A stretch of DNA of 64,000 bases from Escherichia phage vB_EcoS_FFH_1: the sequence record KJ190157; one strand, written 5' to 3'. Below the pieces are notes generated by a model. It was given only the letters and a program-made list of their open reading frames with translations, was not told where the DNA came from and searched no databases. The translations under genes were made by a program, and so were the position numbers. Positions 1,565 to 9,240 of the stretch are shown in pieces (the first letter of the stretch is position 1; every line of letters begins with the position of its first letter).

Positions 1565-3229
1565 TTATGCAAAGAATTTACCGTTTTTAAAGTCAATCAA
1601 AGTGCGCTGACCGTTTGCATAGGTAATTAAATGCGTTTGCGTCCAGCTTGACGCGCCAACGTTGTAACCCATGTCCAGACTACCAGCCACGCCAGCGGTA
1701 TATACGCCACCGTAAATGCTGGCGGTATGGGTATGCCCCGTGTTTAACTTGCCCAATTTCTTAAATTGTTTAGGATTGCCACGGCTGCCGTTAATGCCGT
1801 TGTGACCGTGTACACCACATTCAATGCCTGCAATCTTGAAAGATTGATCAGTGGTTAGGAAAATGGCGTTAAACTCACAACCTGCAACCTTGCGCAAAGC
1901 ATAATCCAGCACGTTAAACGTTTCGTCGTGTTCACCGATTGCCGCGTAAATTGCAGCATTCAGGCGGTGATATAACTCGGCGTTTGCTGGATCGTCTTTA
2001 ATGTTAGCATTTCGATCATCAAGCCAACGGGATAACGCCAGATCGTGGTTTGATTCAACAATGATCGTTTGACTAAAATCACGTTCCATCGATTCCAGCA
2101 CGCGCCCAGTATCGATTAAGTCATCCAGAACTTTATCACGTCCGGCGGCGTACTGTTTTGCTAGGAATACACCGGATGCACGGTTATGATGATTGCGCGA
2201 TGTAAAATCATGCACGTCATGCACAAACTGATATTTTGGTTTAAGAATATCAAGCAAGCTATTTTCGCCATCCCATGACGCAGCGGCGCATTCTTCATCT
2301 AATTTTTCAGCGTGGATGTCGCCATATTGTAAACCTAAAACGTGCCCCGTTGTTTCATAGCATCCGGCAGGAGTAGCGCAAACATTCAGATCATAAAACA
2401 CGCCGCTTTCGTCCATTGTTTCAAGCTGGCGAACAAAAAATTCCCCGTCCTCATCGAACTCAACAATCAGCGCACCGAAATTATGCAGCGCCTCGGCCTT
2501 TTGTCCTGCTTTCTGCTGAATGTAATTTTTGAGCGTTGCCGTTCCGGTTGAATACATGCGGCGCACAATTTCACCTTTTAAAGCTGGCACGCTTTCGGCG
2601 GTGATTTTAGCCGCTCCAATTGCCAGACCTTCCAGATTAAGCGCGGTTGCAGTTTCAGCGAATCCAGAAAGCGGATAATCTGCGGTTGGCAAAACATTAA
2701 TTTCAGCCATGAAAGCAAAACGGCGGTTATTTAAAAACACGTTTTTGCTGCAAATATATTTATCAAATGCGGAATCATATTTGATTCCGTCTGCACCTTC
2801 TCCATTCTGGAAGCCGTTTTTATTATAAATATACTTAGAAACAAGCAAATCAGCGCCGATATATTTAGCAAATTGCTCCAGTGAGGCTAAAAAGTTTTTA
2901 TGCGGGAAAGTATTGTTCTGAATCGATGTAATAATAAAGCGTTTACCTTGTTTTACTTCCCATTGCTCAACCGTGCTAGAAACAATCCCCGCCGCTTCTG
3001 GGCGCTCATCGTTTTTAATGGCTTTTGCTACTTTCGCCGCTTTCGGTTTCGCTGGTTTATTTGCTTCCAGCCAATCACAAATAGCGGTGGAATGTTTTGG
3101 AGTATCGTAAACCGCTTTTGATATATCGTCGCAGACCTCCAGTTTAGTAGCGCGCAGACGTTTACCGTAGAAATTAAAGTCAGCGGCCATTTTCAGGATA
3201 ACGGTTTGTTTTTCTGCGGAAATAATCAT
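1565..3229 (-). CDS. A1: pre-early protein A1-like, calcineurin-like metallophosphoesterase
   Basis: 554 aa; motifs GDIHAE, GHNGINGSRGN, GHTHT typical of Mre11/SbcD-type phosphoesterases; size and position match T5 A1. Confidence 0.7.
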   Translation of the reverse strand: MIISAEKQTVILKMAADFNFYGKRLRATKLEVCDDISKAVYDTPKHSTAICDWLEANKPAKPKAAKVAKAIKNDERPEAAGIVSSTVEQWEVKQGKRFIITSIQNNTFPHKNFLASLEQFAKYIGADLLVSKYIYNKNGFQNGEGADGIKYDSAFDKYICSKNVFLNNRRFAFMAEINVLPTADYPLSGFAETATALNLEGLAIGAAKITAESVPALKGEIVRRMYSTGTATLKNYIQQKAGQKAEALHNFGALIVEFDEDGEFFVRQLETMDESGVFYDLNVCATPAGCYETTGHVLGLQYGDIHAEKLDEECAAASWDGENSLLDILKPKYQFVHDVHDFTSRNHHNRASGVFLAKQYAAGRDKVLDDLIDTGRVLESMERDFSQTIIVESNHDLALSRWLDDRNANIKDDPANAELYHRLNAAIYAAIGEHDETFNVLDYALRKVAGCEFNAIFLTTDQSFKIAGIECGVHGHNGINGSRGNPKQFKKLGKLNTGHTHTASIYGGVYTAGVAGSLDMGYNVGASSWTQTHLITYANGQRTLIDFKNGKFFA

Positions 3230-3607: not shown

Positions 3608-4015
3608 TTATTCGCCTGCGGCTTGTTTCACTTCATCGGCAACGCCCAGCAATTGCGCTACCGCATCCAGCGTTTCAAGTTTTGCGCTTTCCAGACTTGC
3701 CAGATCATCAGCGTCTTTGATAATGCCGGAATCAATAGCGTGTTTAGCGATAACGCGCACATAGTGAGCTTTACGCACAGAGCTACCGCCGCCAACTTTA
3801 CGCGGCTTATCGCTTTTTTGATAGGCTTTTGCGCTGGTCAATTTTGACCGAACGGATACTGGAGAAGCCGCGCCCACTGCTTTTGCAATCTCTTTCAGGC
3901 CGTCGCTATTTGCAAAATCTAAACCGTTTTCGTTGATTAACTGCTGGTACATAGAAACAGCTTTCTGAGTGTTTTCTTCATTCCATGCGAATTTTGCGGT
4001 TTTAGCGTTAGTCAT
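3608..4015 (-). CDS. A2: pre-early protein A2-like (putative DNA-binding)
   Basis: 135 aa ORF immediately downstream-left of A1; basic C-terminal half. Confidence 0.55.
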   Translation of the reverse strand: MTNAKTAKFAWNEENTQKAVSMYQQLINENGLDFANSDGLKEIAKAVGAASPVSVRSKLTSAKAYQKSDKPRKVGGGSSVRKAHYVRVIAKHAIDSGIIKDADDLASLESAKLETLDAVAQLLGVADEVKQAAGE

Positions 4016-4116
4016 GATAAAAACTCCTATTAGTTTAATTTAAGGGATTAGATTAACATAATGTTAATCGTTATATACCCCGAACTACTGGGGTATATAA
4101 AGTTAACACTATAAAC

Positions 4117-4368
4117 TTATGCTACAGCTTCCCATTTTTCGTTACGCTGGACAACCTTTACAACGTCGCCGGATTTAACGCGAACGCTAAAAACGGTTTT
4201 ACCGTTGTTACTACGTTCCGTTTCAGCGTATACCGCGTCGATTGTATCAAATGGCATAAGCGCCGCGCCTTTAATGCGTTCGGCCTTTCCGGTTAATTCA
4301 TCCGTTTTAGTAACGAAAGGAATAAAAACGGATTGACCAATTTTAGGCGTGGTAATAACGTTTTGCAT
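4117..4368 (-). CDS. hypothetical protein
   Basis: 83 aa ORF. Confidence 0.45.
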   Translation of the reverse strand: MQNVITTPKIGQSVFIPFVTKTDELTGKAERIKGAALMPFDTIDAVYAETERSNNGKTVFSVRVKSGDVVKVVQRNEKWEAVA

Positions 4369-4404
4369 AGTATAAACTCCAAGTTATTTAGGGGATTGTT
4401 CCGC

Positions 4405-4433
4405 ATTACCTGCTAGAAAGTAGCAGGTAATAA
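4405..4433. terminator. 10-bp perfect hairpin
   Basis: TTACCTGCTA-GAAAG-TAGCAGGTAA. Confidence 0.5.
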
Positions 4434-4564
4434 GTAACAATCCGCTCGCCAATATAATCAATTTAAAGAACTCCACGCAGGCCGCTATATCCCAGTTAGG
4501 GGGCGGGGCACATTATGGTAAGTGCCGACCGTCAAATTTTATCAAGTTATCGCTCTTATCGAAC

Positions 4565-4589
4565 TGGGTACATCTTAAAGCCTATCGGC
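4565..4589. repeat. 25-bp perfect inverted repeat, left arm
   Basis: TGGGTACATCTTAAAGCCTATCGGC; exact reverse complement at 4833-4857. Confidence 0.85.
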
Positions 4590-4596
4590 TAGGGTG

Positions 4597-4800
4597 TCAA
4601 ACAATTTTTTGCAGTTTTTTATGATTTTCTTTTAAGTCAATCATAATATTGCGCCAGATCATTTCCAGACCTTGCTGGCGGCCTTTCTTGTACTGCGTGA
4701 ATCTATATCTTACGGATTGTTGAGCTACTGTCAACAATTTTTTAGTAGTAACATCTAATTTTTTAGCTGGTTTACCAGTGATCAAAAGCGTTTGTTTCAT
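4597..4800 (-). CDS. small basic protein enclosed by 25-bp inverted repeats
   Basis: 67 aa Lys/Arg/Gln-rich ORF; perfect IR arms at 4565-4589 and 4833-4857. Confidence 0.4.
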   Translation of the reverse strand: MKQTLLITGKPAKKLDVTTKKLLTVAQQSVRYRFTQYKKGRQQGLEMIWRNIMIDLKENHKKLQKIV

Positions 4801-4832
4801 ATCGTCGATTCCTTATAATAGATAAGTTTACC

Positions 4833-4857
4833 GCCGATAGGCTTTAAGATGTACCCA
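4833..4857. repeat. 25-bp perfect inverted repeat, right arm
   Basis: GCCGATAGGCTTTAAGATGTACCCA. Confidence 0.85.
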
Positions 4858-5298
4858 ATTTTTAAAGAGCGTGGCGGTAAACTTCCCGCCGTGTAGTTCG
4901 TCATTGCCGCCCTACGTGATAAATAATAGCAAATACCAAAAATGGCGCAACCTTATTTTTGTAAAGAAACGTAAAGACAAGTGCCACCGGACACCGTGCG
5001 GCAATTGCCTAAGTTTAAAGGAAACGGGCGCGAATACCATAAAACCCAGCGGGTTGGCAAGTAATTTTTTCATTTATATTTGCCTTGCCCTACTTGACAA
5101 AACTTAAAAAGCTCGTGGTAGCGATAAACGAGGGTAGGCAATGCAATGGCATGGCTAAAACTTTCATCGCGTTCTAGGGCGTTTTAGGCCGCTTATTTTC
5201 GAATTAACAAATCATTAACAACCGCAAAATTGAAAAATAGTTGGAAAAGGTCTTGACTTTTAAAAATCAAGACCAAATGACTTAATTTAGTAAATAAA

Positions 5299-5817
5299 TT
5301 AATTGACAATTCCAAATTCAGCTTTTTTAGTTTCAAGCCATAATAGTAACTCTTGTAAATCATAACCAGACTTACTAACACGTTTGTTAGTAATAGGATT
5401 CTTAATTTGAGCAGTCAAATAGTCACGCCCGTAACTATCACGGGGGCGAACTTTATTAACGTAAATGTTTCTAGGGATACCATTAGCACGCTTACAGTTT
5501 TCATACTCACTAGGAGTACGATTATAATTATTCTGCGAACTATCAACCGCGCGAAGATTCCAGATGTTATTATTACGTGGGTTACGATCAATATGATCAA
5601 TCATTAGCTCGCTATCTATACCCCCATTCATTATACAAAAGATAATTCTGTGCACTTTGAATTGTCCCATATCTAATAATTCAACTTGCCAATAATTACC
5701 ATTTAAACCACCTGCGACGGCGTGATCTTCCCGCCAACGTAAAAATGATAACGCTGTTTCATCATAATAAAAGTAACTATTAAAAAGATCATAATCTATA
5801 TCTTTATACTTAGGCAT
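5299..5817 (-). CDS. HNH homing endonuclease
   Basis: 172 aa; HNH motif IDHIDRNPRNNNIWNLRAV plus AP2-like C-terminal DNA-binding region. Confidence 0.7.
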   Translation of the reverse strand: MPKYKDIDYDLFNSYFYYDETALSFLRWREDHAVAGGLNGNYWQVELLDMGQFKVHRIIFCIMNGGIDSELMIDHIDRNPRNNNIWNLRAVDSSQNNYNRTPSEYENCKRANGIPRNIYVNKVRPRDSYGRDYLTAQIKNPITNKRVSKSGYDLQELLLWLETKKAEFGIVN

Positions 5818-6007
5818 CTAATTGTTTCCTTATGTTATTAATTTAATCTCTATTATATTATATCAAAATAGTTAGCAAGCGAGCTAATGAGTTTTTCAGG
5901 ATTAGTTAGCAGACTCATAATCACGGTAAAATCCTATTAGCCAACTAACTATATTTTACGATATAATAACTTTATAAATTAGTTAGTGAGAAAAACTATC
6001 ATTTAAG

Positions 6008-6114
6008 TTATCCACAGACTTAATCACAGCACAAAATAATTTGACATGATAGGCGGCGATATAAGGACTTTTACACAGACTTATCCACATGTTATCCTAC
6101 TGTATAAATATACA
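6008..6114. repeat. left arm of large imperfect inverted repeat with two DnaA boxes
   Basis: TTATCCACA at 6008-6016 and 6081-6089; palindrome ACTGTATAAATATACAG at 6098-6114; reverse complement recurs at 8951-9058. Confidence 0.8.
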
Positions 6115-6382
6115 AGGTAAAAAGGTAGTGTTAACAACTGCAATCAATTTTAAGCCGCCTAAAACGCTTTCTAACGAGCTAAATGCGGTGGGGTAATATT
6201 AAAGTAAAGCCTCAATGCGTCGCCCTGGTGGCTTCGCCGTGTTTTGCTCTTTATTACACCGCTGCGCGGTTATCATAAAAATAGGCGCTAGGCAAGGAAA
6301 ATAAAAAGGTAAAATAATATTTGCCCCTAGAAAGAAAATACCTTTATCATTCACTCACCGATTAACGAGGGAGGCCGAACAA

Positions 6383-7393
6383 ATGAGGCTATATAAACCA
6401 GATAACGCAACCGTTTTAAAAGGTGCATTGCGCAACCTGCTGGACGGTGGCAAGTCAACCAGCATTAAACATTTTATTAACAAGGCTGAAACTATTCATC
6501 AAAACTTTTTTGATGATTATGACGCCTATGATATGGATAGTTTTCTACCATTATATAAGCAAGGGGCAACGCTAGTTTTATATAATCGGGATTGCCATAT
6601 CTTTACAGGCAGGGGAGCGGGGCCGGATACCGATTTTATTGTTGCGCAGGGTAATAATATTGTTGCGTATCATAGCAATTCAGGCCGTCAATCATTTAAT
6701 ATAAATAGTTTTGAGCTTATTGGGCTTGATCTGATAAATGGACTTTCTAGCATTGAGGGATTTTTAGATGTTATCTGGAAGTATTTACCCGCTGGATGGC
6801 ATAAGCCGGATAACGACGGATCTCAATATACTGGTATAATGGCTTTTGATGGCGATGGTAATTTTTTGTTACCTTCGAAATTATACCCGTATGTTTATAA
6901 TGATCTGATAGAAGAAGCCGGGTTTTCTTTCTGGAAAGATGAAGATCAGATTATTGACAGCGTAGAAAACCATGCTGTAAATTCTAACACTCAAAGCGTT
7001 AACACTCAAACTACTGAAAACAAAGGAAAAAACACCATGACCAAGATCGCTAATATTGTTGCCGCTAATAAATCCGCTGCTGTAAACGCTGCAAAACTGG
7101 AAGCAGGTAAAATTGCATTGACTCAAATTACGAAAGTAGCGGCTAAAAAAGCACCGTTCATGATCAAAGGCTATATTGATACGCCGATTGGTCGGGTAGT
7201 GATTGCCAACCTGCTGAGTGTAGCGGTTGACCAGTACGCCCCAAGTAACCAAAAGGCGAAAGCGGTGGCAGGTGCAGCTATGGAAGCGGCTATGTTAGAA
7301 ATGGTGCAAAGTTTTAACATCGCTGAGATGATTGATGAAATGGTAAAAGGTATTGATATTTCTACTTTTACCACTAGCACCGAAAGCGAGTAA
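6383..7393 (+). CDS. hypothetical protein
   Basis: 336 aa ORF, RBS GAGGGAGG upstream, terminator at 7422-7447. Confidence 0.6.
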   Translation: MRLYKPDNATVLKGALRNLLDGGKSTSIKHFINKAETIHQNFFDDYDAYDMDSFLPLYKQGATLVLYNRDCHIFTGRGAGPDTDFIVAQGNNIVAYHSNSGRQSFNINSFELIGLDLINGLSSIEGFLDVIWKYLPAGWHKPDNDGSQYTGIMAFDGDGNFLLPSKLYPYVYNDLIEEAGFSFWKDEDQIIDSVENHAVNSNTQSVNTQTTENKGKNTMTKIANIVAANKSAAVNAAKLEAGKIALTQITKVAAKKAPFMIKGYIDTPIGRVVIANLLSVAVDQYAPSNQKAKAVAGAAMEAAMLEMVQSFNIAEMIDEMVKGIDISTFTTSTESE

Positions 7394-8950: not shown

Positions 8951-9058
8951 CTGTATATTTATACAGTAGGATAAGCTGTGGATAAGTCTGTTAATAACGC
9001 CTCAAAATGGCTAGGATTCTGTCAAGTCAAATCGTGCTGTTAATAAGTCTGTGGATAA
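8951..9058. repeat. right arm of large imperfect inverted repeat with two DnaA boxes
   Basis: TGTGGATAA at 8978-8986 and 9050-9058; palindrome ACTGTATATTTATACAGT at 8951-8968. Confidence 0.8.
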
Positions 9059-9084
9059 CTTAAATAATAGTGTTTCTCACTTCC

Positions 9085-9240
9085 ATTCTTAAATGCAAAT
9101 CATTATCATTCGCATTTCACTTTCTAAATGAGAATCATTTCACTTCTTGAATAGTTCTCATTTCACTTTTTAAATGCGAATTATTATCATTCTCATTTCG
9201 CTTTTTAAATGAGAATAATTATCATTCGCATTCGCATTCA
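9085..9240. repeat. degenerate direct repeats (TTAAATG[A/C]GAAT...ATCATTC units)
   Basis: about five 25-35 bp units with internal dyad symmetry, read directly. Confidence 0.6.

What the first reader, a model, noticed from the sequence alone, without database searches (positions are those of the whole stretch)
4565..4857. Perfect 25-bp inverted repeats enclosing a 67-aa basic ORF
TGGGTACATCTTAAAGCCTATCGGC (4565-4589) is exactly reverse-complemented at 4833-4857, bracketing ORF 4597-4800 (Lys/Arg/Gln-rich). This could be a miniature inverted-repeat element, a long-range RNA stem that pairs the 5' and 3' ends of the transcript, or a recognition site pair for a site-specific nuclease.
Basis: seen in the sequence. 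Interest (0 to 1): 0.55.

Follow-up and report, generated by a model that had tools for sequence, protein, structure and literature searches.

The report
T5 repeat IRA/IRA′ bracketing hdi
The perfect 25-bp inverted repeat is real, but it is the already-catalogued "IRA/IRA′" repeat of phage T5's pre-early region, and it brackets the known cell-division inhibitor gene hdi; comparison of relatives shows that the two arms co-evolve to stay complementary, most likely as a long-range RNA helix.

Summary
4565-4589 and 4833-4857 are exact reverse complements, occur nowhere else in the window, and never arise in shuffled sequence. The window is a T5-like phage (Tequintavirus) left terminal repeat. The repeat is already annotated in T5 (AY587007) as "inverted repeat A / A′". 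The 67-aa ORF is the homolog of T5.008 = Hdi, a published FtsZ/cell-division inhibitor.

It is not a mobile element. There is no target-site duplication, no other copy, and no empty site in any relative examined.

The arms persist in six lineages of Demerecviridae with very different sequences:
- 11 of 29 stem pairs changed on both sides.
- One phage has a matching 1-nt insertion in both arms.
- Mismatches are mainly G·U in the gene-sense RNA (60 vs 6 cells).
- The sense duplex is the more stable in 24 of 26 unique arm pairs.
- Background substitutions show no matching bias.

The downstream arm always covers the spacer, −10 and start site of a conserved σ70 promoter. The cargo between the arms varies.

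Best reading: a selected 24-29-bp long-range RNA helix in read-through pre-early transcripts, probably an RNase III-type processing or stabilising stalk. That last step is inferred, not tested. The element is already known and its function is unresolved. Interest is modest.

The parts
4833..4857 (-). Upstream (5') arm of the inverted repeat as read in the gene-sense (minus-strand) transcript. It corresponds to T5 'inverted repeat A′' and lies 17 nt upstream of the hdi Shine-Dalgarno.
   Evidence: for the sequence. One search gives AY587007 IRA′ at 4950-4974, which is window + 117. Conserved and co-varying in all relatives.
4565..4589 (-). Downstream (3') arm, corresponding to T5 'inverted repeat A'. 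It is also the spacer, −10 (TAAGAT, 4572-4577) and discriminator of a σ70-type promoter.
   Evidence: One search gives IRA at 4682-4706, overlapping the putative promoter T5P1 at 4663-4737. One search finds TTGACA-17-TAAGAT at 4600→4572. The same arrangement is seen in every genus examined.
4551..4564 (-). Outer extension of the helix on the downstream side: three extra pairs next to the arm, an internal loop, and the 7-bp outer helix strand AAGAGCG (sense).
   Evidence: 39 nt, 87%; per-sequence pairing; MFE fold.
4858..4871 (-). Outer extension on the upstream side. It contains the leader motif CGCTCTTTAAAAAT, which directly precedes the 5' arm in the lineages examined.
4597..4800 (-). hdi homolog (T5.008 family, Pfam DUF7416), 67 aa. 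T5.008 is a published inhibitor of FtsZ and host division.
   Evidence: ORF. (DUF7416 1e-35; phrog_4718 1e-38). (T5.008 at T5 4715-4918). (63/67 identical to T5.008; motif conserved across genera). (median dN/dS 0.10). PMC10714956.
4595..4600 (-). −35 hexamer TTGACA of the promoter whose core forms the 3' arm. It overlaps the hdi stop codon.
   Evidence: Conserved position 4-7 nt upstream of the 3' arm in all lineages.
4707..4734 (-). Internal promoter TTGACA-16-TAAGAT inside the hdi coding sequence, matching T5 P-H22.
   Evidence: One search places P-H22 at T5 4799-4873. The P-H22 transcript was detected by primer extension during infection (PMC7472727). The promoter is present only in Tequintavirus and some Epseptimavirus.
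4824..4884 (-). Local 12-bp hairpin (AAGTTTACCGCC / GGCGGTAAACTT) whose 37-nt loop displays the 5' arm. It overlaps the arm by 3 nt, so it competes with the long-range helix.
   Evidence: I12. Conserved in Stitch, TrudiRoth and IME178. Not evident by eye in the Klebsiella flanks and weak in phiR201.
4923..4950 (-). Putative upstream promoter (TTGCGC-16-TATTAT) that would yield transcripts carrying both arms. This is inferred and falls below the scan tool's threshold.
   Evidence: Read. Equivalent elements are TTGCAA-16-TAATAT in phiR201 and TTGTGG-17-TAATAT in Serratia phage Kamaji, at the same relative position.
4390..4446 (-). Long local hairpin (26-nt arms) in the leader between the 3' arm and the T5.007-homolog start. 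It is possibly a second processing or stability element of the same operon.
   Evidence: I2. Long hairpins with different sequences occupy the same position in Stitch, UTK0009, Klebsiella, Serratia, TrudiRoth and IME178.

Best explanation
The repeat is the IRA/IRA′ pair of the T5-like pre-early (first-step-transfer) region. Its two arms are kept complementary by selection because they pair in RNA.

In leftward pre-early transcripts that start upstream of the 5' arm and read through hdi, the 5' arm (4833-4857) and the 3' arm (4565-4589) form a long-range helix of 24-29 bp. The helix closes off the hdi cassette. The 3' arm is placed so that it coincides with the core (spacer, −10, start site) of the conserved promoter that drives T5.007-A2-A1-dmp.

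The most likely consequence is inferred, not shown. The helix would act as a double-stranded processing or stabilising stalk, a substrate of host RNase III. Cleavage would separate the cassette mRNA from the downstream message, much as the flanking stalks of 16S and 23S rRNA precursors do. It would leave the read-through message with a 5' end close to that of the promoter's own transcript.

Shown here: the repeat, its identity with IRA/IRA′, the identity of the ORF, the co-variation, the strand asymmetry, and the overlap with the promoter. Inferred: that both arms are co-transcribed, that the helix forms in vivo, and what it does.
For: Identity of the element:
- T5 GenBank features IRA and IRA′ lie at the homologous coordinates.

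Selection on pairing:
- On 32 distinct arm pairs, 95.9% of cells pair and 11 of 29 pairs changed on both sides. 0 of 500 shuffles reach any observed measure, and controls with the partner slid by 1-3 columns drop to 25-50% paired.
- Arm sequences are largely different in Klebsiella Sugarlandvirus, Serratia Kamaji, Pectobacterium My1 and its relative L093, yet stay complementary.
- L003 has a matched 1-nt insertion in both arms.
- Stem position 7 shows the series C-G, U·G, U-A.

Strand of action:
- Mismatched cells are 60 G·U in the gene-sense RNA against 6 A·C.
- Sense-strand transitions in the flanks show no C>T/A>G excess: 88 vs 121, 61 vs 56 and 45 vs 49 sites.
- The sense duplex is more stable than the antisense duplex in 24 of 26 unique arm pairs, by a mean of 6.1 kcal/mol.

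Folding:
- The helix is in the MFE structure in all 11 representative lineages. In the window the fold has a z-score of −8.4.
- Stem length stays at 24-29 bp across genera, while the distance between arms varies from 217 to 431 nt. That fits a helix and does not fit phased protein sites.

Co-transcription is plausible:
- No terminator-like site was found between the arms.
- A conserved promoter-like element lies upstream of the 5' arm.

Established knowledge: E. coli RNase III cleaves RNA duplexes of about two helical turns or more.
Against: - No transcript-level data were available, so co-transcription of both arms, helix formation and cleavage are all untested.
- Counted as distinct events rather than cells, the G·U excess is only about 18 vs 8, and the sequences are phylogenetically related. 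Two lineages (My1 unit 2 and the DT57C type) favour the antisense strand.
- Some G·U-creating changes, such as C→T just upstream of the −10, could be selected for promoter strength instead.
- The strict coincidence of the 3' arm with the promoter core is not required by a pure processing model and is only loosely explained by it.
- The strong promoters P-H22 (inside the unit) and the arm promoter produce transcripts with only the 3' arm, or with essentially none of it. The helix can therefore affect only a subset of messages.
- No paper linking T5 pre-early RNA to RNase III was found.
Confidence: 0.5

Rival explanations
1. DNA-level operator pair. The two arms are binding sites for a phage or host protein, for example one involved in A1-dependent shut-off of pre-early transcription. 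The protein would occlude the −10 of the arm promoter and, by looping to the other arm, silence P-H22, which lies between them.
For: The 3' arm covers the −10 and spacer of a conserved promoter, and P-H22 lies between the arms. Both arms are conserved in all relatives. Paired operators flanking promoters are established in the gal, deo and ara operons (general knowledge).
Against: Arm sequences differ greatly between genera while staying mutually complementary. A matched 1-nt insertion in both arms is tolerated. The spacing varies from 217 to 431 nt with no constant helical phase. Arm mismatches are strand-asymmetric (G·U vs A·C), which a double-stranded protein site does not predict. No candidate binding protein was identified.
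Confidence: 0.17
2. Cassette-exchange boundaries. The conserved flanks (leader motif, arms, RBS, promoter) serve mainly as homology patches through which related phages swap the small host-takeover genes between them. This would be comparable to the promoter/stem-loop (PeSL) cassettes described for T4-type phages.
For: The cargo is variable while the arms are constant. It is hdi alone, an extra ORF plus hdi (L003, L028, L041, L044), an unrelated 56-aa ORF replacing hdi cleanly between the RBS and the −35 (L022, DT57C), or a truncated hdi (IME178). My1 has two such units in tandem, and the leader motif GCTCTTTAA[A/C]AATTTGG recurs as a direct repeat around the units.
Against: Recombination between genomes needs flanks conserved in the same orientation. 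It does not need the two flanks to be reverse complements of each other. This model therefore explains neither the compensatory changes nor the G·U asymmetry. It could be a secondary consequence of conserved flanks rather than the selected function.
Confidence: 0.12
3. Inverted partial promoter copy. The 5' arm is a reversed copy of the promoter core that acts on the opposite strand as a weak divergent promoter, an RNA polymerase/σ70 docking site or a pause site.
For: On the plus strand the right arm reads GCCGATAGGCTTTAAGATGTACCCA, the same spacer, −10 and start sequence as the real promoter.
Against: The −35 position of the inverted copy is ATAAGT in the window and TAAGTT in the Klebsiella phage, 1-2 of 6 matches (read). 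The scan reports no plus-strand promoter there. This model also does not predict the G·U strand asymmetry.
Confidence: 0.07
4. Mobile or enzymatic target: a MITE-like transposable unit, an invertible segment, or a pair of cleavage sites for a homing or site-specific nuclease.
For: Perfect terminal inverted repeats around a short unit, with an HNH endonuclease gene about 450 bp away.
Against: There is no target-site duplication, and the unit is single-copy in the 64-kb window. It is present at the same locus, with no empty site, in every relative examined. In every locus examined the last ORF between the arms reads in the same direction as T5.007, so no inverted variant was seen. [quoted passage not shown]
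Confidence: 0.03

Closest known systems
T5 'inverted repeat A / A′' (IRA/IRA′) of 'Repeat Region 1' in the left terminal repeat (GenBank AY587007, attributed by Davison to Wang et al.; Davison 2020 preprint 10.1101/866236)
   Same: Same locus, same 25-bp extent and, apart from one mismatch in T5's upstream arm, the same sequence. T5 coordinates equal window + 117. It lies between T5.007 and the upstream repeat region, and is duplicated with the terminal repeat.
   Different: Nothing structural differs, so this is the same element in a different Tequintavirus. The literature treats the region as untranslated with unknown function. Here it is shown to enclose a real gene, to co-vary across genera, and to overlap a promoter core.
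T5.008 / Hdi, host division inhibitor targeting FtsZ (Mahata et al. 2023, PMC10714956)
   Same: The enclosed ORF is 63/67 identical to T5.008, at the same position. It belongs to Pfam DUF7416.
   Different: Activity was not tested for this allele. The paper does not discuss the flanking repeat or the regulation of hdi in the sections read.
RNase III processing stalks formed by sequences flanking 16S and 23S rRNA, and the RNase III sites of T7 early mRNAs (established knowledge)
   Same: A duplex of at least two helical turns is formed by sequences on either side of a functional RNA unit within a longer transcript made by host RNA polymerase. T7, like T5, expresses its first genes from strong host-type promoters.
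   Different: T7 sites are local hairpins between genes, not long-range pairs around a gene. Cleavage here is not demonstrated, and here one strand of the stalk doubles as a promoter core.
Fold-back (5'-3' long-range) pairing in mRNAs of small toxic proteins such as hok (type I toxin-antitoxin systems; established knowledge)
   Same: A small, host-toxic protein is encoded on an mRNA whose upstream and downstream regions pair over a long distance.
   Different: No antisense RNA partner was identified. The hdi ribosome-binding site is not inside the helix. The biological logic differs too, because a lytic phage wants early expression.
Promoter/stem-loop (PeSL) regulatory cassettes of T4-type phages (recalled from the literature, not checked here)
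   Same: Small early host-takeover ORFs are flanked by repeated promoter-plus-structure motifs, with variable cargo between conserved flanks.
   Different: PeSLs are local stem-loops repeated in direct orientation. Here the structure is one long-range helix spanning the cassette.

Membership tests
T5 IRA/IRA′ element | About 25-bp arms homologous to the features annotated in AY587007 at 4682-4706 and 4950-4974 | tested here: met
   One search gives the annotation. Searches place the T5 arms (L025/L027) at the homologous positions, with the downstream arm identical to the window and one mismatch in the upstream arm.
T5 IRA/IRA′ element | Location in the left terminal repeat between the T5.007 homolog and the upstream repeat region / HNH insertion, downstream of dmp-A1-A2 in the map | tested here: met
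   Gene order and 8 matches T5 and BF23.
Hdi / T5.008 (Pfam DUF7416) for the enclosed ORF | Sequence homology to T5.008 over the full length | tested here: met
   Pfam DUF7416 E = 1.1e-35 over residues 1-66. 63/67 identical to T5.008. Median dN/dS 0.10.
Hdi / T5.008 (Pfam DUF7416) for the enclosed ORF | Inhibition of FtsZ ring formation and host division | not testable with these tools
   Shown for T5.008 in PMC10714956, not for this allele.
Miniature inverted-repeat transposable element (MITE) | Terminal inverted repeats | tested here: met
Miniature inverted-repeat transposable element (MITE) | Target-site duplication flanking the arms | tested here: not met
   No 2-12-bp direct repeat abuts either the 25-bp or the 39-bp boundary.
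Miniature inverted-repeat transposable element (MITE) | Multiple copies, or presence/absence polymorphism at the insertion site | tested here: not met
   Single pair in 64 kb. Present at the same locus in all relatives examined, with no empty site.
RNase III long-range processing stalk | RNA duplex of about 20 bp or more formed by distant segments of one transcript | tested here: inconclusive
   A 24-29-bp helix is predicted in the MFE fold in all lineages and is supported by covariation. Co-transcription of both arms is only inferred.
RNase III long-range processing stalk | RNase III-dependent cleavage within the duplex | not testable with these tools
   Needs transcript end mapping in wild-type and rnc hosts. 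No literature was found.
Known RNA families (Rfam 15) | Match to a curated covariance model | tested here: not met
   No match in 4565-4857. Only three sub-threshold chance-level hits elsewhere in 3900-6400.
Invertible DNA segment / site-specific recombination sites | Both orientations of the segment found among relatives; a recombinase nearby | tested here: not met
   The last ORF between the arms has the same orientation as T5.007 in every locus examined. No recombinase was found among the five neighbouring ORFs scanned.

The most novel reading that the evidence does not exclude
The coupling of the helix to the promoter is the point. The leader RNA made from upstream carries a 25-29-nt copy of the template-strand sequence of the universal pre-early promoter core (about −24 to +3). 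It could act on that promoter itself, for example by pairing with its non-template strand when the promoter is open or by pairing with nascent read-through RNA at the polymerase. Upstream transcription would then tune the output of T5.007-A2-A1-dmp and of the toxic Hdi. That would be a cis-encoded, promoter-complementary RNA switch. The tandem repetition of the same design in phage My1 would make it a general module of T5-like pre-early regions.
Probability: 0.07. Interest if true: 0.7.

Novelty: already known. Interest (0 to 1): 0.33.

Why it matters
The repeat and the gene inside it are both already in the literature, so the finding does not reveal a new kind of element. What this analysis adds is that "Repeat Region 1" of T5-like phages, described as untranslated and of unknown function, contains a helix under clear selection for pairing. 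The pairing most likely acts in RNA. The helix brackets the FtsZ-inhibitor gene hdi, and one of its strands is the core of the promoter conserved in every lineage examined. If the helix proves to be a processing or regulatory stalk, it would give a concrete, testable handle on how the first 8% of the T5 genome balances a toxic host-takeover protein against the essential A1/A2 injection functions. Post-transcriptional control has received almost no attention in this classical system.

Tried and rejected
- MITE, transposon, invertible segment and nuclease-site readings were rejected: no TSD, single copy, no empty site, constant orientation.
- I first thought L003 lacked the repeat. Inspection showed both arms carry a matched 1-nt insertion that defeated the ungapped search.
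- I suspected the ORF might be spurious, because Davison calls the region untranslated and a strong promoter lies inside it. This was rejected by dN/dS of 0.10, a motif conserved across genera, and the Hdi paper.
- Davison's statement that DT57C lacks T5p008-011 suggested a natural deletion of the unit. In fact DT57C keeps both arms and has a different ORF between them.
- Mutational bias as the cause of the G·U excess was tested against flanking sequence and not supported.
- Rfam gave no match.
- Folding the window alone cannot choose a strand, because the repeat is perfect.
- Three further IMG/VR scans mostly returned contigs already in hand, and the one metagenome scan gave only 16 loci.
- Klebsiella phage KP2025 has a weak T5.007-like hit but no such repeat, and is not a T5-like genome.
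- Davison's 2015 review and the supplements of the 2020 preprint could not be retrieved.
- No RNA-seq or 5'-end mapping study of T5 pre-early transcripts turned up, and no paper held both RNase III and T5 pre-early terms.
- The annotated range of P-D/E20 in NC_005859 (4338-4664) stops just short of the arm promoter. I could not decide whether they are the same promoter.

Full report
**1. The observation**

The sequence at 4565-4589 (TGGGTACATCTTAAAGCCTATCGGC) is exactly reverse-complemented at 4833-4857, with 243 nt between the arms. A search allowing 3 mismatches finds only these two sites in the 64-kb window, and none in 100 dinucleotide-preserving shuffles. No 12-16-mer of the arm occurs elsewhere.

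The complementarity continues outward. Three more pairs follow (the last a U·G in the minus-strand RNA). After a short internal loop there is a 7-bp helix, CGCTCTT/AAGAGCG. The repeat finder reports 39 nt at 87%.

The 67-aa ORF at 4597-4800 is on the minus strand and has an AAGGA ribosome-binding site.

**2. Where we are**

The neighbours are a dmp-like ORF (1-735), A1 (1565-3229; PHROG 'DNA transfer protein', E = 2e-243), A2 (3608-4015), a T5.007 homolog (4117-4368; DUF7177) and an HNH endonuclease (5299-5817), all on the minus strand. This is the left terminal repeat (first-step-transfer, pre-early region) of a T5-like phage.

The 621 bp around the finding match 443 phage records, with BF23 best at 96%. 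Over 9 kb the closest records are about 92-93% identical. The window is therefore a Tequintavirus not identical to any record in the collection.

**3. The repeat is already catalogued**

GenBank AY587007 (T5) annotates 'inverted repeat A' at 4682-4706 and 'inverted repeat A′' at 4950-4974. T5 coordinates equal window coordinates + 117, and the T5 arms align to ours with one mismatch in the upstream arm.

Davison's preprint calls the surrounding 629 bp 'Repeat Region 1'. [quoted passage not shown] It lists the region among the 'untranslated' repeat regions, which it says serve some important but unidentified functions.

**4. The ORF is already characterised**

NC_005859 annotates the homologous ORF as T5.008 (4715-4918). 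The window protein is 63/67 identical to it and matches Pfam DUF7416 at 1e-35.

T5.008 is Hdi. It is a small protein that is toxic when expressed in E. coli, destabilises FtsZ rings, blocks host division and gives T5 a competitive advantage (Mahata et al. 2023, PMC10714956).

The gene is under purifying selection (median dN/dS 0.10, and 0.05 in the C-terminal half). Its core motif, R-[YF]-[RK]-x-Y-[KR]-[KR]-G-x-QQGL-x-M-[IV]-W-[RD]-N-M-M, survives in Tequintavirus, Epseptimavirus, Klebsiella Sugarlandvirus, Serratia phage Kamaji and the My1 relative L093. My1_013 carries the same core (read). The region is therefore not untranslated.

**5. Promoters**

A consensus scan finds two nearly identical minus-strand σ70-type promoters.

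- TTGACA-16-TAAGAT at 4734→4707 lies inside hdi. It coincides with the annotated P-H22, whose transcript was detected by primer extension during infection (Klimuk et al. 2020, PMC7472727).
- TTGACA-17-TAAGAT at 4600→4572 corresponds to the putative promoter T5P1 of AY587007. Its −35 overlaps the hdi stop codon. Its spacer, −10 and discriminator are the 3' arm of the repeat.

The second arrangement holds in every lineage examined. The arm begins 4-7 nt after a TTGACA or TTGATA and ends at about +1 to +5. The −10 is TAAGAT in T5-like, Epseptimavirus and Serratia phages, TATTAT in the Klebsiella phage, and TATGAT in My1 (11/12 consensus match) and L093. P-H22, by contrast, exists only in Tequintavirus and some Epseptimavirus.

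**6. Not a mobile element**

- No 2-12-bp direct repeat abuts the arms.
- The unit is single-copy in the window.
- Every relative examined carries it at the same place. These include 36 IMG/VR loci, 14 of the 16 metagenome loci (the other two were too short to assess), and T5, BF23, Stitch, UTK0009, TrudiRoth, IME178, phiR201, DT57C, three Klebsiella phages, Serratia Kamaji, My1 and L093.
- L003 looked empty at first, but it has a 1-nt insertion in each arm.
- DT57C was reported to lack several ORFs here. It keeps both arms and has a different ORF between them.
- In every locus examined, the last ORF between the arms reads in the same direction as T5.007.

**7. The arms co-evolve**

On an alignment of 32 distinct arm pairs, 95.9% of cells form standard pairs and 11 of 29 pairs have changed on both sides. 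None of 500 column shuffles reaches any observed measure, and sliding the partner by 1-3 columns drops pairing to 25-50%.

The arms of the Klebsiella phages are TTGGGATTCTATAAAAAGCGTTATCGGC / GCCGATAACGCTTTATTATAGAATCTCAA. Those of Serratia Kamaji, My1 and L093 (ATCGGAAAATTATCATATAGCTCGTTTGC / GCAAACGGGTTATATGATAGCTTTCCGAT) also share little with the T5 arms, yet each pair is complementary over 24-29 bp. The matched insertion in L003 and the series C-G, U·G, U-A at stem position 7 are textbook compensatory patterns.

The distance between arms ranges from 217 to 431 nt because the cargo differs. This argues for a nucleic-acid helix rather than phased protein sites.

**8. Which strand**

In the window the repeat is perfect, so both strands fold equally well. 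In relatives the imperfections are informative.

- Among unique sequences the core-stem cells are 782 Watson-Crick, 60 G·U in the gene-sense RNA, and only 6 A·C, which would be G·U in the antisense RNA.
- The G·U variants are the common, widely shared ones. The A·C variants are near-singletons.
- Sense-strand transitions in the flanks, hdi and T5.007 show no excess of C>T plus A>G: 88 vs 121, 61 vs 56 and 45 vs 49 sites. Mutational bias therefore does not explain the asymmetry.
- As RNA, the sense duplex is more stable than the antisense duplex in 24 of 26 unique arm pairs, by a mean of 6.1 kcal/mol.
- The long-range helix is part of the MFE fold of the sense RNA in all 11 representative lineages.

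There are caveats. Counted as distinct events, the excess is roughly 18 vs 8. The sequences are related. My1 unit 2 and the DT57C type go the other way. Some changes may be driven by promoter optimisation.

**9. Can both arms be on one RNA?**

No terminator-like site lies between the arms. Upstream of the 5' arm there is a promoter-like element conserved in position across genera. It reads TTGCGC-16-TATTAT at 4950→4923 in the window, TTGCAA-16-TAATAT in phiR201 and TTGTGG-17-TAATAT in Kamaji. It is below the scan tool's threshold and remains an inference. Read-through from the promoter upstream of the HNH gene is another possible source.

**10. Mechanism**

The best-supported reading is a selected long-range RNA helix in read-through pre-early transcripts that brackets the hdi cassette. 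A 24-29-bp near-perfect duplex is the size class that E. coli RNase III cleaves (established knowledge). I therefore infer a processing or stabilising stalk, analogous to the stalks flanking 16S and 23S rRNA and functionally like the RNase III sites of T7 early mRNA.

Cleavage would release the cassette mRNA with paired ends. It would give the downstream T5.007-A2-A1-dmp message a 5' end close to the arm promoter's own start.

A second long hairpin (window 4390-4446) has different sequences but the same position in the other lineages examined, and may belong to the same processing logic.

None of this is shown experimentally. No study linking T5 pre-early RNA to RNase III turned up, and a search for RNA-seq or start-site mapping of T5 pre-early transcripts found none.

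**11. What remains unexplained**

A pure processing model does not demand the strict coincidence of the 3' arm with the promoter core in all lineages. My1 carries a second, adjacent unit of the same design: a 38-nt repeat around My1_014 whose 3' arm also holds a −10-like element. The leader motif GCTCTTTAA[A/C]AATTTGG recurs just before each 5' arm, and in most genera again after the 3' arm. These features leave room for a promoter-linked regulatory role or a role in cassette exchange, and both are listed as rivals.

**12. Verdict**

The feature is real and non-random, but it is already annotated (IRA/IRA′) and encloses an already characterised gene (hdi). New here are the cross-genus covariation, the sense-strand G·U asymmetry, the identity of the 3' arm with a universal promoter core, and the exchangeable cargo. 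Interest is modest (0.33). The function is unresolved but directly testable.

Noticed in passing
window 4390-4446: A long local hairpin (26-nt arms, 85%) lies just upstream of the T5.007-homolog ribosome-binding site. A hairpin of 19-35 nt per arm, with a quite different sequence, sits at the same position in Stitch, UTK0009, Klebsiella K30lambda2.2, Serratia Kamaji, TrudiRoth and IME178. This suggests a conserved structured leader, possibly another RNase III-size element.
   Followed up: partly
window 4858-4871 (minus strand CGCTCTTTAAAAAT); L040, L042, L043, L046, L049, L093 downstream of their 3' arms: A leader motif GCTCTTTAA[A/C]AATTTGG directly precedes the 5' arm in the lineages examined. 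In most genera it recurs in direct orientation 10-100 nt after the 3' arm, in the T5.007 leader. In the T5 group only an inverted AAGAGCG remains there, and in TrudiRoth it is part of a 40-nt repeat. Its function is unknown.
   Followed up: partly
window 4707-4734, inside hdi codons 23-31: The experimentally active pre-early promoter P-H22 (TTGACA-16-TAAGAT) is embedded in the hdi reading frame, with TTGACA starting at codon 23 and TAAGAT at codon 30. It is present only where the protein has the LLT[VI]AQ sequence, so the DNA is dual-use in Tequintavirus and some Epseptimavirus.
   Followed up: partly
L022/L024/L086/L087 (IMGVR_UViG_2974666860) and L110 (DT57C, record 4180-4760): hdi is replaced, cleanly between the RBS and the −35 of the arm promoter, by an unrelated 56-aa ORF (MKIKETANNITVEQAEAV...). 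The arms are kept, but this is one of only two lineages whose arm mismatches favour the antisense strand.
   Followed up: partly
L003, L028/L029, L041, L044 (398-410 nt between the arms): Some phages carry additional coding sequence between the 5' arm and hdi (in L003, MQTIYNDHPATHDTIEKIEQWVKAANEYHATYSEAVIICNDGKGLYALEDLK). IME178 (L045) has an N-terminally truncated hdi remnant with an intact repeat.
   Followed up: no
L046 (My1) 6739-6776 / 7009-7046 and 6363-6378 / 6706-6721: Pectobacterium phage My1 has two adjacent repeat-bounded units. One surrounds My1_014 (38-nt arms, 84%). The other surrounds My1_013 (hdi-like) plus My1_012, and its 3' arm lies in a near-consensus promoter TTGACA-17-TATGAT.
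   Followed up: partly
window 5163-5195 / 6151-6183: A 33-nt inverted repeat (76%) brackets the HNH endonuclease gene (5299-5817). It probably corresponds to T5 IRB/IRB′. According to Davison the HNH gene is an insertion that splits one ancestral repeat region.
   Followed up: no
window 5985-6114 / 8952-9081, and 9092-9232: A 130-nt inverted repeat (79%) has arms 2.8 kb apart, plus nested palindromes. It probably corresponds to the IRC-spacer-IRD / IRD′-spacer-IRC′ elements with DnaA boxes that Davison proposes as the injection stop signal. For example, TTATCCACA occurs at about 6081-6089.
   Followed up: no
window 4923-4950 (minus strand): A promoter-like element TTGCGC-16-TATTAT is preceded by CTTTACnnnnCTTTACAAAAAT and conserved in position in phiR201 and Serratia Kamaji. 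No promoter feature is annotated at the homologous position in the T5 and BF23 records examined. It would start the hdi mRNA about 60 nt upstream of the 5' arm.
   Followed up: partly
T5 record NC_005859 4915-5022 (T5.009); BF23 record OR083247 4582-4889 (BF23_00008 and BF23_00009): Small ORFs annotated upstream of hdi overlap the 5' arm, the local hairpin and the conserved leader motif. They are probably over-predictions.
   Followed up: no
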